Assembly: GCA_037200965.1 (NCBI GenBank) | Contig: JBBCGK010000001.1 | Span: 433,992-497,991 of the forward strand | Source: a bacterium | GTDB taxonomy: Bacteria > Patescibacteriota > Minisyncoccia > Phycocordibacterales > Phycocordibacteraceae | Direction of reading: 5' to 3' | Length of the DNA: 64,000 nucleotides | Shown here: positions 15,263 through 17,867 of the stretch, in pieces | Layout: every line of letters starts with the position of its first letter | How positions within the stretch are numbered: position 1 is the stretch's first letter | Translations under genes and position numbers: made by a program | Notes under the pieces: model-generated | Told to the model about the DNA's origin: nothing | What the model saw: the letters and a program-made list of their open reading frames with translations, nothing else | The model's database searches: none

Positions 15263-15935
15263 GTTCTCACGCATTACTGCGTGCATCGGACTGTAACTTC
15301 ATCGGTTCTCGATGTTCAACGTTCAGTCTCTACGGGCGATATACCTCCGTATCCGCTTCTTGGAGTAGTTCAGTTCTCCGAAAGCGTTTACGAGTTCGAG
15401 CAATTTCTTGAATGCTGCCTGATTCTGTTCGCGCTTCTTGCAGTCCAGGACCTTCTTCAGGAGAGCGATCTGTTTCTTCTTCAACCGAACGAAAGGTTCG
15501 ACGAGTCGGATCATCTCTTCTAAGTCGTCAAGACGCTGCACCGTGTACTCGCACACGCCATCCTTGCGTTCCCGAAGGGAACCGAACGGCATAAGCGTAC
15601 ACATCTTCTCGAAAGAATCCTTCGACTTGGCGGACTGGAAGAACACTATCGCTGGTGCAATCTGGTATCCGAACCGATAGGTTGAATTAGGTTTTGCACG
15701 AACGTAGATGCTTCCATCCCCATCGAGGAATCCTGCGAGATAAGCCCTGTCAGTGTCAGATAGGCGAATTTGCTTCATATCTTCCCTCGGTATTATCCTA
15801 CCATATGACAGGTTAGGACTTCACCGATATAAGTTGAATTGTCGTACTGCATTCCTGCAATACGCCGCCGTGATCATGTCTTCTGCCTCGGGGCTCAGAC
15901 CGTTCAGTGGCCGATGCTTTCATCTAGCCGCTGAA
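15263..15935 (-). mobile_element. Group-I-like intron at the 23S I-CreI homing site (E. coli L2593 equivalent), ~673 nt
   Basis: Exon junction ...GGGTTCAGACCGT | intron | CGTGAGACAGGTTGG. Contains an I-CreI-like ORF. Confidence 0.7.
15323..15778 (-). CDS. I-CreI-family single-motif LAGLIDADG homing endonuclease
   Basis: [28 protein letters not shown] and [15 protein letters not shown] parallel I-CreI (YLAGFVDGDGSIIAQIKPNQSYKFKHQL; LKLKQKQANLVLKII). Located in the L2593 intron. Confidence 0.8.
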
Positions 15936-16270
15936 CGGTCTGAACCCAACTCACGTAACATTTTAATTGGCGAACAGCCAAACGCTTGGGACCTTCTCCA
16001 GCCCCGCGCTATGTTGAGTCGACATCGAGGTGCCGAACTCCGCCGTCGCTATGGACGCTTGGGCGGAACTAGCCTGTTATCCCCAGAGTAACTTTTATCC
16101 GTTGAGCTCTGGCCGCATCTAAGGCGTACCATCGGATCACTATGCTCTGCTTTCGCATCTGCTCGGGATGTACCCCTTGCAGTTAAGCTCTCTTATGCCA
16201 TTACACTATCGGCACGGTTTCCATTCGCGCCTAGAGAACCTTAATAGACTCCTCCGTTACTTTTTAGGCG

Positions 16271-16563
16271 TGTGGTACTCAATCGCTTGAGCGCGCGATC
16301 ACGGAATCGCACCTCTATGTCGCCATAGAGATCGGACTATATCTTCATCACCTTGCGGTGAGATCGGCGTGTAGTCTCTGAGGGTTCTCTTACGAGTCTT
16401 CCCTGCTGATTGTCCGCACCGGACGGATTTTCACTCTTTCGAGTACCGCCGGATACCCGGATGTTCCAGCATTTGGCCGATTTGCTTGTACCGGTTGCCC
16501 GGCACAGTCCCCCTTTTTTATATTTATCGGTTTTCGGATGATGGTCGAACGGGCGCCGCTTTC
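16271..16563 (-). mobile_element. ORF-less group-I-like intron in 23S (near E. coli position ~2255), ~290 nt
   Basis: Non-rRNA sequence between ...GGGGCGCTATCCTC and CCTAAAAAGTAACGGAGG. Contains the intron-family core blocks contiguously (ATCGGACTATATC ... CGGCGTGTAGTCTCTGAGGGTTCTCTTACGAGTCTTCCCTGCTGATTG). Confidence 0.6.
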
Positions 16564-16916
16564 GAGGATAGCGCCCCACCAAAACTGCCTACCACGCACG
16601 GTCCCGAGGAGGATCCCTCCTCGGTTAGGAACTGCACAATTCAAGAGTGGTATTTCACTGACGAGTCCACGGGAGCCGAAACCCCCGCTTCAACCTCTCC
16701 CACCTATGCTACGCAGGAATCACGCAGCCCCAATACGAAGCTGCAGTAAAGCTTCTGGGGTCTTTTCGTCTAACTACAGGTAACCGGCATCTTCACCGGT
16801 AATGCATTTTCACCGAGCGAGTCCTCGAGACAGTTCCCCAGTCATTACGCCATTCGTGCACGTCGGAATTTACCCGACAAGGAATTGCGCTCTTCTATTC
16901 CTCTACGAAGGACCAT

Positions 16917-17867
16917 TTCTTCACCCCCGAAGGGGTGCGCGGCGTATGGCCTCTCTTGTGAGCCGCGGATCTGCTATGCGTTGCCGCATAACGAGGTAGC
17001 TTGTCATGACGTAATCTTTCGAACTGTTTACGGTCTCCTACAATCGTCCCAATCCGTTCCGCGCTCGATCGCTCGAACGCGGAACCTTAGGCATATCTCC
17101 TTCCTGTCGCCAGGAGGTTGGACTTTATCATCTCGCGTCTCAAGCGAGTCCGACGTAAAGTCTCTGAGGATTCATGTGTTCAATTACTAATCCGGGAGCG
17201 TCGCGAGCATCTCTTGTAGAGCGTGCTTGCGGCCCTTTCCTTGTTGATTCATCGAGTATGCGAGTGTTGCTATCCTCACAAACCCTTCCTTCGTCCAGTG
17301 CTCCCGCTTCTCCATTGCCGCGACGATCTCCTTGAAGATCACGAATGTCTCGGCTTTGACGAGAAGCGGGTATCGCTCGAAGAACGGTATAACCCGCTCG
17401 ACGATTGAACGTCTCGAATCGATGCTGAAGTTGAGGACGGGATGAGTTCCGGATTTTCGATATATCGACCCTGTCCCGAAGGTTTCCTTCATGAGTTCAA
17501 GCACCTCGCGGTGCTTCTCATGCTGGTATACCTGGAAACAAGGATTGATCATCCATCCGAACTTTTGGGTCGGATGCTTGATGATCGATACCGAGAAGCT
17601 TCCCTCTCCGTCCACGAATCCTGCTACATAGTAGTTGCGCTGATGTCGCTTGCCACGGAAGTAGCTCATGACATCAGCCGAGTTATTCAGTCTCATGGCT
17701 AAGTTTGTTAGTTGTGAGACGAACACATGTCTTTCCTGCTGATTGACTGCACCGCGCGCATTGTTACCTGCTCGGTAGCGGCGGATACACCAGTTATTCC
17801 AGCATTTGGTCGGATTTTATAATCGCCCGACTTTTGACCTACTTGCGCAGGTTTGTAGGGTCCACGA
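16917..17867 (-). mobile_element. Group-I-like intron in 23S at about E. coli position 1917 (~950 nt) with a LAGLIDADG ORF
   Basis: Exon junction ...CGGCGATAACTATAA | intron | GGTCCTTCGTAGAGG... (E. coli AACTATAACGGTCCTAAGG). Family core blocks flank the ORF. Confidence 0.65.
17187..17726 (-). CDS. LAGLIDADG homing endonuclease (179 aa)
   Basis: Motif VAGFVDGEGSFSV; lies between the AGTCTCTGAGG and CCTGCTGATTG blocks of the intron. Confidence 0.75.
   Translation of the reverse strand: MFVSQLTNLAMRLNNSADVMSYFRGKRHQRNYYVAGFVDGEGSFSVSIIKHPTQKFGWMINPCFQVYQHEKHREVLELMKETFGTGSIYRKSGTHPVLNFSIDSRRSIVERVIPFFERYPLLVKAETFVIFKEIVAAMEKREHWTKEGFVRIATLAYSMNQQGKGRKHALQEMLATLPD

What the first reader, a model, noticed from the sequence alone, without database searches (positions are those of the whole stretch)
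15263..17867. All rRNA introns in the window belong to one family; ORF-containing and ORF-less versions show where the endonuclease gene was inserted
The 16S intron and the 23S introns at ~16271-16563 and ~16917-17867 share near-identical blocks: ATCGGACTATATC, CGGCGTGTAGTCTCTGAGG and CTTCCCTGCTGATTG. The L2593 intron has degenerate versions of these.

In the 293-nt ORF-less intron the AGTCTCTGAGG and CCTGCTGATTG blocks are 20 nt apart. In the 16S intron and the ~1917-site intron a LAGLIDADG ORF sits exactly between them. This documents the peripheral loop into which homing-endonuclease genes were inserted, and within-genome spread of one intron family between 16S and 23S.
Basis: seen in the sequence. 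Interest (0 to 1): 0.6.

Follow-up and report, generated by a model that had tools for sequence, protein, structure and literature searches.

The report
CPR rRNA introns, one lacking P4-P6

Summary
The three blocks are real. They are exact in the 16S S516 intron and the 23S L2262 intron, and chance does not explain blocks 2 and 3. They map onto the group I core: P4'/P6, P6'-J6/7-P7-J7/3-P3', and J8/7-P7'. All three LAGLIDADG ORFs sit in the P6 loop, so that part of the reading holds, but it is textbook and already described for CPR and cyanobacterial rRNA introns.

"Within-genome spread of one family" is not supported.
- The exact blocks occur in 18-26 of 120 group I loci from unrelated bacteria.
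- Each window intron has closer relatives in other genomes, same-site ones for L1923, L2593 and the S516 5' half. Within-genome partners rank 6th to 115th.
- The three endonucleases belong to different lineages: I-SceI-like, I-CeuI/I-OnuI-like and I-CreI/I-MsoI-like.

The "~1917 intron" is two introns, L1923 (772 nt, with ORF) and L1931 (192 nt), separated by an 8-nt exon CCUAAGGU. The L1931 element keeps P1, P2, P3, P7, P8, P9 and the 3'-terminal G but has no P4-P6. It belongs to a family of at least 100 copies (85 distinct sequences) with strong covariation, and Rfam's group I model does not detect it.

A further 23S insertion (18046-18409) is a hairpin-type intervening sequence, not a group I intron.

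The parts
699..1633 (-). 16S rRNA group I intron at E. coli site S516 (935 nt). The 5' exon ends ...CUAACUCUGU and the intron ends ...CACGAUG.
   Evidence: E. coli mapping. Core helices P3, P4, P6, P7, P8 and P9 are complementary. The best match of the 5' half is the S516 intron of a Kaiserbacteria MAG, L006.
740..1423 (-). S516 intron ORF, 227 aa from the ATG. It is an I-SceI-like LAGLIDADG_2 endonuclease lying in L6. Its last ~22 codons read through P6'-P7-P3'-P8-P7'.
   Evidence: Pfam PF03161, 1.5e-32. PDB match to I-SceI, 5e-16. ORF coordinates.
15260..15934 (-). 23S rRNA group I intron at L2593 (675 nt).
   Evidence: E. coli mapping. Best matches are L2593 introns in other CPR genomes, L030, L029 and L021. 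Helices checked.
15323..15778 (-). L2593 intron ORF, 151 aa. It is a single-motif LAGLIDADG_1 endonuclease of the I-MsoI/I-CreI type, lying in L6 with its stop codon inside P7.
   Evidence: Pfam PF00961, 4e-11. PDB matches to I-MsoI (6.5e-34) and I-CreI (3.6e-16).
16269..16564 (-). 23S rRNA ORF-less group I intron at L2262 (296 nt). Its P6a is closed by a GUAA tetraloop.
   Evidence: Rfam Intron_gpI, 67.6 bits against a gathering score of 50, covering the full model. E. coli mapping.
16892..17083 (-). 23S rRNA L1931 mini-intron (192 nt). It is group I-derived, with a P1-like 5' hairpin, P2, P2.1, P3, P7, P8, P9 and a 3'-terminal G, but no P4-P5-P6.
   Evidence: No Rfam hit at E<=10. A homologue (L122) shows compensatory changes. 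The family comprises 100 copies, 85 of them distinct. Covariation on 77 sequences: 91.7% of cells paired against 35-43% for slid controls. RNAalifold. A ~190-column gap against the full-length relative L072.
17084..17091 (-). 8-nt mini-exon CCUAAGGU, corresponding to E. coli 23S positions 1924-1931, lying between the two introns.
   Evidence: Splicing restores ...AAUCGU|CCUAAGGU|AGCGCAAUUCC, colinear with E. coli. The helix 69 stem GGCGA/UCGUC carries compensatory changes. The same arrangement is seen in L122, L161, L171 and L233, and mini-exons occur in L096, L086, L035 and L092.
17092..17863 (-). 23S rRNA group I intron at L1923 (772 nt). P1 is exon AAUCGU paired with IGS GCGAUU, giving a U.G pair at the splice site.
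   Evidence: Best matches are L1923 introns of other CPR genomes, L021, L019, L051 and L003, at 75-81%. A weak Rfam hit covers the 3' core only (14 bits, E 0.74). Helices checked.
17187..17696 (-). L1923 intron ORF, 169 aa. It is a single-domain LAGLIDADG_1 endonuclease lying in L6, flanked by a 9-bp P6a stem (CAUGUGUUC/GAACACAUG).
   Evidence: Pfam PF00961, 3.8e-21. PDB matches to the I-OnuI family and to I-CeuI (6e-19). 364 homologues, many in CPR.
18046..18409 (-). Hairpin-type insertion in the 23S helix 63 region (E. coli ~1705-1770) carrying an 87-aa ORF (18107-18370). It is not a group I intron.
   Evidence: 25-nt inverted repeat, 92% complementary, 314 nt between the arms. No significant similarity to the other introns. 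No Pfam or NCBIfam family for the ORF.

Best explanation
The window carries a CPR (Patescibacteria) 23S-5S unit and an unlinked 16S gene, all on the minus strand. They are interrupted by five group I-type introns (S516, L1923, L1931, L2262, L2593) and one unrelated hairpin insertion.

These are the 3' strand of P4 with P6, the stretch P6'-J6/7-P7-J7/3-P3', and J8/7 with the 3' strand of P7, which forms the guanosine-binding site.

Three introns carry LAGLIDADG homing endonuclease genes in the terminal loop of P6, where an insert does not disturb the core. The ORF tails run into the core.

Each intron belongs to an insertion-site-specific lineage. Such lineages are maintained in CPR rRNA genes by endonuclease-driven homing and vertical descent. 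The similarity between the 16S and 23S introns reflects membership of a widespread bacterial intron subclass, not recent copying inside this genome.

The L1931 element is a reduced derivative of a full-length CPR L1931 intron. The segment from J3/4 to P6', with the ORF, has been deleted. What remains is a P1-like hairpin, a P2/P2.1 domain, and the P3-P7-P8-P9 catalytic half with the 3'-terminal G.

Shown: the intron boundaries, the core mapping, the loop position of the ORFs, the family relationships, and the covariation-supported structure without P4-P6.

Inferred: that the mini-intron is still excised by guanosine-dependent group I chemistry.
For: - Boundaries and sites.
- Rfam alignment of L2262, which fixes the block-to-helix mapping.
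- ORFs and their families.
Hits came from CPR, Actinobacteria, Gammaproteobacteria, Coxiella and archaea, at sites including L1917, L1923, L1931, L1951, L2262, L2500, L2593, L2604, S516 and S788.
- Same-site best hits for L1923, L2593 and the S516 5' half. Within-genome partners rank 6th to 115th.
- L1931: a homologue with compensatory changes; 108 metagenome loci with a 168-198 nt insertion at L1931, of which 98 belong to one family.
- Covariation on 77 sequences: 91.7% of cells paired, covariation score 0.616 against 0.115 or less for slid controls, and 35 of 46 pairs with changes on both sides.
- The linker from P3 to P7 is only 5-8 nt, the intron ends in G in 76 of 77 sequences, and the P2.1 loop is GNRA in 77 of 77.
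- Alignment to the full-length relative L072 shows one ~190-column gap covering P4-P6.
- Literature: CPR rRNA insertions and LAGLIDADG genes are described in PMC11270868. Site-specific intron clades, and ORFs that start in P6 and run into P7-P9 in bacterial LSU introns, are described in PMC1995217.
Against: - Only L2262 reaches Rfam's group I threshold. The L1923 3' core scores 14 bits and L1931 scores nothing. The structures of S516, L1923 and L2593 therefore rest on manual mapping, complementarity and homology.
- No transcript or splicing data are available, so excision of any of these introns is not shown.
- The mini-intron lacks the canonical U.G pair at the 5' splice site. The U is opposite an invariant A in 77 of 77 sequences.
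- The mini-intron also lacks J4/5, which normally recognises that pair. Group I chemistry is therefore plausible but unproven.
- The foreign-intron sample was selected with a motif derived from the window introns, which biases it towards similar cores.
Confidence: 0.85

Rival explanations
1. One intron family spread recently within this genome between 16S and 23S, by ectopic homing or reverse splicing, so the identical blocks are recent common descent.
For: S516 and L2262 share exact 13-, 19- and 15-nt blocks. L1923 and L2262 align at 77% over 90 nt, and L2262 ranks 6th for the L1923 5' half.
Against: - Outside the blocks, identity is 72-77%.
- The same exact blocks occur in 18-26 of 120 unrelated loci.
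- 5 to 114 foreign loci are closer than the within-genome partner.
- The HEGs belong to different families.
- Same-site relatives exist in other genomes.
- The literature shows site-specific clades (PMC1995217).
Confidence: 0.05
2. The stretch 16892-17863 is a single long intron near L1917/L1923 with a ~200-nt 3' extension. The host 23S would then carry a ~12-nt insertion near position 1927.
For: A gapped global alignment can place AAUGGUCCU at 16909-16917 opposite E. coli 1918-1926.
Against: - The two-intron model restores the universally conserved CCUAAGGUAGCG exactly, and restores helix 69 pairing with compensatory changes.
- Both introns then end in G.
- The 192-nt unit occurs alone, with no upstream intron, in most of 98 metagenome loci.
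- Its own helices covary.
Confidence: 0.02
3. The L1931 mini-intron is no longer a ribozyme. Either a host protein such as an RNase or a maturase-like factor removes it, or it depends on a P4-P6 domain supplied in trans by a co-transcribed full-length intron such as the L1923 intron 8 nt upstream.
For: - P4-P6, J4/5 and the U.G pair are absent.
- Rfam's group I model does not detect it.
- In this window four other group I introns could supply a P4-P6 domain.
- From my own knowledge: trans complementation of a P4-P6 deletion has been shown in vitro for the Tetrahymena ribozyme (Doudna and Cech 1995).
Against: - In 10 of 12 complete 23S genes carrying the mini-intron, Rfam finds no group I intron at all.
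- Most copies have no L1923 neighbour, so a cis or trans donor cannot be obligatory.
- The P7 guanosine-site pairs are invariant (G-C in 77 of 77, twice, around a bulged A). J8/7 is conserved. The 3'-terminal G is present in 76 of 77. P10 complementarity is kept. All of this argues that the catalytic half is under selection.
- The two ends do not form a long stem of the kind RNase III would cut.
Confidence: 0.35

Closest known systems
CPR rRNA insertion sequences with LAGLIDADG genes (Tsurumaki et al. 2024, PMC11270868; Brown et al. 2015 from my own knowledge)
   Same: Multiple group I-like insertions occur in CPR 16S and 23S genes. Single-domain LAGLIDADG_1 genes occur at 23S positions 1917, 1931, 1952, 2593 and 2604. 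The characterised enzyme I-ShaI is I-CeuI-like, as is the L1923 ORF here.
   Different: That survey classified introns with the Rfam model and left short (<200 bp) ORF-less insertions uncharacterised. The L1931 mini-intron family found here falls in that class and is resolved here as a P4-P6-less derivative of a group I intron.
Cyanobacterial LSU rRNA introns at L1917, L1931 and L2593 with LAGLIDADG genes (Haugen et al. 2007, PMC1995217)
   Same: Several HEG-containing group I introns sit in one bacterial 23S gene. The ORFs start in P6 and run through P7, P3 and P8. Introns and endonucleases cluster by insertion site, not by host.
   Different: The host here is CPR. There are additional sites (S516, L1923, L2262), two introns lie only 8 nt apart, and one intron lacks P4-P6.
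Chlamydomonas chloroplast LSU introns encoding I-CreI (L2593) and I-CeuI (L1923)
   Same: The insertion sites are the same and the endonucleases are homologous.
   Different: Sequence similarity is distant: 29% identity between the two window enzymes. The intron RNA structures were not compared here.
Small 'degenerate' group I introns of fungal nuclear SSU rDNA (56-81 nt; Harris and Rogers 2011, PMC3160393)
   Same: These are natural group I derivatives that have lost most core helices, including P4-P6. One is reported to splice in vitro by the group I pathway.
   Different: The fungal ones keep only P1, P7 and P10. The CPR mini-intron keeps P3, P7, P8 and P9 plus a conserved P2/P2.1 domain, is bacterial, sits at L1931, and forms a large covarying family.
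Engineered P4-P6 deletion ribozymes (Ikawa et al. 2000, T4 td intron; Doudna and Cech 1995, Tetrahymena). From my own knowledge, not checked here.
   Same: A P3-P7 half without P4-P6 acts as a minimal catalytic domain.
   Different: Those are laboratory constructs with weak activity or activity dependent on complementation. This one is natural and conserved.

Membership tests
Group I intron (L2262, 16269-16564) | Match to the Rfam RF00028 covariance model above the gathering score | tested here: met
   67.6 bits against a gathering score of 50, model positions 1-253.
Group I intron (S516, L1923, L2593) | Match to the Rfam RF00028 covariance model | tested here: not met
   No hit at E<=1 over 14700-20400. 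For L1923 there is only a 14-bit hit (E 0.74) on the 3' core. This is expected, because the 456-684 nt ORFs sit inside P6.
Group I intron (S516, L1923, L2593) | Core helices P3, P4, P6, P7, P8 and P9 in canonical order with a P3/P7 pseudoknot; the 5' exon ends in U and the intron ends in G | tested here: met
   Boundaries. Proposed strands are complementary, 5/5 to 9/9 pairs for P3, P4, P6a, P7 and P9. Homology to the Rfam-confirmed L2262 core and to same-site introns elsewhere.
Group I intron (L1931 mini-intron, 16892-17083) | P3/P7 pseudoknot, P8, J8/7, guanosine-site pair with a bulge in P7, 3'-terminal G | tested here: met
   All 6 P3 pairs covary. The two P7 G-C pairs are invariant in 77 of 77 sequences around a bulged A. 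P8 and P9 covary. The intron ends in G in 76 of 77.
Group I intron (L1931 mini-intron) | P4-P5-P6 domain between the 5' strand of P3 and P7 | tested here: not met
   Only 5-8 nt separate P3 and P7 in 77 sequences. A single ~190-column gap appears against the full-length relative L072.
Group I intron (L1931 mini-intron) | U.G wobble pair at the 5' splice site within P1 | tested here: not met
   The last exon U is opposite an invariant A at the base of the 5' hairpin, U-A in 77 of 77. An alternative partner in GCUACCU is also A.
Group I intron (L1931 mini-intron) | Match to Rfam RF00028 | tested here: not met
   No hit at E<=10 on 16870-17110. None of the 12 family members in complete 23S genes is hit at the gathering score.
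Group I intron (all five) | Guanosine-dependent self-splicing | not testable with these tools
   This needs in vitro splicing assays or transcript data.
LAGLIDADG homing endonucleases | Pfam LAGLIDADG domain above the curated cut-off, with homology to characterised enzymes that cut the same rRNA site | tested here: met
   PF03161 at 113 bits (S516 ORF); PF00961 at 76 bits (L1923 ORF) and 44 bits (L2593 ORF). PDB matches to I-SceI, to I-CeuI and I-OnuI, and to I-MsoI and I-CreI. Cleavage activity was not tested.
RNase III-type rRNA intervening sequence (18046-18409) | Insertion whose two ends form a long helix extending an rRNA hairpin | tested here: met
   25-nt inverted repeat, 92% complementary. 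Processing was not tested. The ORF does not match 23S_rRNA_IVP or any other Pfam family.

The most novel reading that the evidence does not exclude
The 192-nt L1931 element represents a large, conserved class of natural group I-derived introns in CPR 23S rRNA. At least 100 copies were found in one exon-anchored scan, 85 of them distinct. These introns would splice on their own without any P4-P6 domain and without a U.G splice-site pair. A conserved P2/P2.1 domain (GNRA loop in 77 of 77) and an invariant GCUACCU guide, complementary to the ligated exons AGGU|AGC, would take over scaffolding and substrate positioning. That would make it a naturally evolved 'minimal catalytic domain' group I ribozyme. 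It is invisible to the Rfam model and therefore counted among the 'uncharacterised short insertions' of CPR rRNA.
Probability: 0.4. Interest if true: 0.7.

Novelty: new variant of a known kind. Interest (0 to 1): 0.45.

Why it matters
The claimed finding is already established biology. Shared core blocks and an endonuclease gene in a peripheral loop are known for CPR and other bacterial rRNA introns, and the appealing inference of intragenomic spread does not hold.

What is worth keeping is the correction. Two introns lie 8 nt apart, and the second belongs to a widespread family that has lost P4-P6 yet keeps the catalytic half under clear structural selection.

If this family self-splices, three things follow.
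- It is a natural test case for how much of the group I fold is needed for catalysis.
- It explains part of the 'unclassified short insertions' in CPR 23S genes.
- It shows that current covariance models undercount group I-derived introns.

From my own knowledge, an I-CeuI-type target spans the 1931 junction. An allele occupied at L1931 should therefore resist L1923 homing, which bears on how such intron pairs are inherited.

Tried and rejected
- Rfam scans at permissive thresholds on the L1931 and L1923 regions gave nothing for L1931 and only a 14-bit partial hit for L1923. Rfam could not be used to confirm the ORF-containing introns.
- My first manual fold of L1931 included a P4 (GCUA/UAGC). 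I dropped it because the homologue L122 does not keep that pairing.
- A single-sequence MFE fold recovered the hairpins but not the pseudoknot.
- I considered that the adjacent L1923 intron supplies P4-P6 to the mini-intron. I downgraded this because most family members have no L1923 neighbour and 10 of 12 complete host 23S genes have no Rfam-detectable group I intron.
- blastn of the L1931 element against the 120 genome loci gave no hit at E<=1e-3. Relatives were found only through the exon-anchored metagenome pattern and through shared 5' motifs in L072, L039, L037 and L098.
- NCBIfam gave no names for any of the four ORFs.
- Literature searches for natural P4-P6-less group I introns found none in bacteria. 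The only precedent found was the fungal degenerate introns.
- Group I subgroup assignment (IA, IC and so on) was not attempted because no subgroup models were available.
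Full report
**Layout**

All rRNA genes lie on the minus strand. The 23S gene runs from 20235 down to about 14950, the 5S gene from 14869 to 14762, and the 16S gene from 2093 to the window start. The 16S gene is about 12.7 kb downstream of the 5S gene, so it is not linked to the 23S-5S unit.

An exact-protein look-up places the window in GCA_037975565.1, contig JBBCBH010010897.1, which is 960 kb long. Homologues of the intron ORFs are overwhelmingly from CPR/Patescibacteria.

**Intron boundaries**

I aligned both rRNAs to E. 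coli rrsH and rrlH. This gives five insertions that start after a U and end in G:

| Site | Window coordinates | Length |
|---|---|---|
| S516 | 699-1633 | 935 nt |
| L1923 | 17092-17863 | 772 nt |
| L1931 | 16892-17083 | 192 nt |
| L2262 | 16269-16564 | 296 nt |
| L2593 | 15260-15934 | 675 nt |

Three observations support this.
- Removing both introns restores ...GAUAACUAUAAUCGU|CCUAAGGU|AGCGCAAUUCCUUGUCGGG, which is colinear with E. coli 1907-1945.
- The helix 69 stem becomes GGCGA/UCGUC, with compensatory changes relative to E. coli GGCCG/CGGUC.
- A one-intron model instead leaves about 12 extra nucleotides inside a universally conserved stretch.

**The observation**

The three blocks are present as described, and blocks 2 and 3 are far above chance. 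Block 1 is short and, at up to 3 mismatches, is not above chance on its own.

Only L2262 is detected by Rfam's group I model (67.6 bits). Its alignment fixes what the blocks are:
- CAAUCAGCAGGGAAG is J5/4, the 3' strand of P4, and P6.
- CCUCAGAGACUACACGCCG is P6'-J6/7-P7-J7/3-P3'.
- GAUAUAGUCCGAU is J8/7, the 3' strand of P7, and the start of P9.

The same order of complementary strands can be written for S516, L1923 and L2593. In L2593 the P4'/P6 counterpart is AAUACCGAGGGAAG, immediately before the ORF start (15781-15795 on the + strand).

**ORF position**

In L2262, P6 continues into a 3-bp P6a closed by GUAA. In the three ORF-containing introns the ORF replaces that loop.
- In L1923 a perfect 9-bp P6a (CAUGUGUUC/GAACACAUG) brackets the ORF.
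- In S516 and L2593 the reading frame continues into P6'-P7. In S516 it runs on through P8 and the 3' strand of P7.

This is exactly what Haugen et al. described for cyanobacterial LSU introns, where ORFs start in P6 and run into P7-P9 (PMC1995217). Full-length CPR L1931 introns in L039, L037 and L098 show the same thing. The 'loop of insertion' reading is therefore right, but it is not new.

**One family and within-genome spread?**

Direct comparison shows limited similarity.
- L1923 and L2262 align at 77% over 90 nt and 72% over 71 nt.
- S516 and L2262 align at 76% over 75 nt, plus a 17-nt exact block.
- L2593 shares only a 19-nt J8/7-P7 stretch with the others.
- L1931 shares nothing significant.

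These came from CPR, Actinobacteria, Gammaproteobacteria, Coxiella, Chloroflexi and archaea. The introns sit at sites including L1917, L1923, L1931, L1951, L2262, L2500, L2593, L2604, S516 and S788, and some are outside rRNA genes.

The best matches tell the same story.
- L1923: L1923 introns of other CPR genomes.
- L2593: L2593 introns of other CPR genomes.
- S516 5' half: a Kaiserbacteria S516 intron.
- L2262: L2604, L1931 and L2262 introns of other phyla, at 78-84%.

When the window introns are added to the database, the within-genome partner ranks between 6th and 115th.

The endonucleases are of three kinds:
- I-SceI-like LAGLIDADG_2 in S516.
- A single-domain I-CeuI/I-OnuI-like enzyme in L1923.
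- An I-MsoI/I-CreI-like enzyme in L2593.

The two LAGLIDADG_1 proteins are only 29% identical. Published trees also show introns and endonucleases grouping by insertion site (PMC1995217), and CPR-wide surveys find the same endonuclease family at the same site across phyla (PMC11270868).

The evidence therefore points to site-specific lineages of a common bacterial intron subclass, not to spread within this genome. One caveat applies: the foreign sample was drawn with a motif derived from these introns.

**The L1931 mini-intron**

Rfam gives no hit even at E<=10. A Logan contig (L122) is 85% identical across 1.2 kb. It shows compensatory changes in a 5' hairpin, a GNRA hairpin, a helix CGCGGC/GCCGCG, P8 and P9.

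Its 3' part reads ...AGAGGCCAUACGCCGCG-[P8]-GAAGAAAUGGUCC. This is homologous to J6/7-P7-J7/3-P3', P8 and J8/7-P7' of ordinary introns.

Full-length CPR L1931 introns (L072, 395 nt; L039, L037 and L098, with ORFs) share its 5' domain and its 3' half. Between P3 and P7 they also carry a normal J3/4-P4-P5-P6 with the ORF or its remnant. Aligned to L072, the mini-introns show one gap of about 190 columns exactly there.

An exon-anchored metagenome scan (CCTAAGGT, then 168-198 nt, then AGCGNAATTCCTTGTC) returned 108 loci. Of these, 98 belong to the same family. With the window and L122 that makes 100 copies, 85 of them distinct, and 41-90% identical to the window copy.

On a 77-sequence alignment, my proposed structure gives the following:
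- 91.7% of cells are paired, against 35-43% when the partners are slid by 1-3 columns.
- The covariation score is 0.616, against 0.115 or less for the slid controls.
- 35 of 46 pairs show changes on both sides.
- No shuffle out of 500 reached any of the observed measures.

RNAalifold independently recovers the 5' hairpin, P2.1, P3 and P8. It adds a P10 (GCU of an invariant GCUACCU paired with the 3' exon AGC) and a pairing of exon CCUA with the intron sequence U-R-G-G.

Other conserved features:
- Only 5-8 nt lie between P3 and P7.
- The intron ends in G in 76 of 77 sequences.
- The P2.1 loop is GNRA in 77 of 77.
- The P7 pairs flanking a bulged A are invariant.

Two canonical features are missing: P4-P6 (and with it J4/5), and the U.G pair. 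The splice-site U faces an invariant A.

**How the mini-intron is removed is not shown**

Selection on P7, J8/7, the 3'-terminal G and P10 argues for group I chemistry carried out by the remaining catalytic half. There is laboratory precedent for this in the td and Tetrahymena P4-P6 deletions (my own knowledge). There is also natural precedent in the fungal 56-81 nt degenerate introns, one of which splices in vitro (PMC3160393).

Dependence on a neighbouring intron's P4-P6 is unlikely to be general. Most copies have no L1923 neighbour, and Rfam finds a group I intron in only 2 of 12 complete host 23S genes, never at the mini-intron itself. A protein-dependent or nuclease route remains possible.

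Tsurumaki et al. classified CPR insertions with the Rfam model and left short ORF-less ones uncharacterised (PMC11270868). This family plausibly sits there. I found no paper describing it. The held library is incomplete, so prior description cannot be excluded.

**Other insertion**

The insertion at 18046-18409, in the helix 63 region, is bounded by a 25-nt inverted repeat and contains an 87-aa ORF with no family match. It resembles hairpin-type intervening sequences and is unrelated to the group I introns.

**Verdict**

The core-mapping and loop-insertion parts of the interpretation are right but already known. The 'one family, within-genome spread' part is not supported. The most interesting content of the interval is the L1923 and L1931 intron pair, and the P4-P6-less L1931 family in particular.

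Noticed in passing
window 18046-18409: A hairpin-type insertion in the 23S helix 63 region. It is bounded by a 25-nt inverted repeat (92% complementary) and carries an 87-aa ORF (18107-18370, minus strand) with no Pfam or NCBIfam match. The same ORF is called as a gene in the NCBI record.
   Followed up: partly
window 1-2093 versus 14762-20235: The 16S gene is not linked to the 23S-5S unit. It lies about 12.7 kb downstream of the 5S gene on the same strand, with protein-coding genes in between.
   Followed up: no
window 15890-15934 and 15935-15943: In the L2593 intron, the 5' exon end UCAGACCGU is perfectly complementary over 9 nt to the intron sequence ACGGUCUGA. This would put a U-A pair rather than U.G at the splice site, as in the L1931 family.
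   Followed up: no
window 17084-17091; loci L161, L171, L233, L122: An L1923-type intron ending ...AUG directly precedes the 8-nt exon and an L1931 mini-intron in several other metagenome contigs. From my own knowledge, an I-CeuI-type target spans the 1931 junction, so the pair is probably inherited together rather than acquired by separate homing events.
   Followed up: partly
L138:1782-2000 and L152:13113-13334: Two L1931 insertions of 195 and 198 nt do have a P4-like UGCUGG and the ordinary AGACUA/UAGUC P7. They would be unusually small but otherwise canonical group I introns, distinct from the P4-P6-less family.
   Followed up: no
L123 (GCA_050485705.1, JBJHBV010000010.1) 6001-11410: One CPR 23S gene carries six LAGLIDADG ORFs in a row (four LAGLIDADG_1 and two LAGLIDADG_2). 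This is an extreme case of intron load.
   Followed up: no
window 675-698: The 16S 3' exon reads GCCAGCAGGAGCGGUAAUAC where E. coli has GCCAGCAGCCGCGGUAAUAC. That is two or three substitutions in the normally invariant 530-loop / 515F primer site, next to the S516 intron.
   Followed up: no
window 19762-19962 and about 20010: Further small expansions lie in the 5' part of the 23S gene: about 100 extra nt between E. coli positions 270 and 369, and a 54-nt insert near Rfam model position 228. I did not examine them.
   Followed up: no
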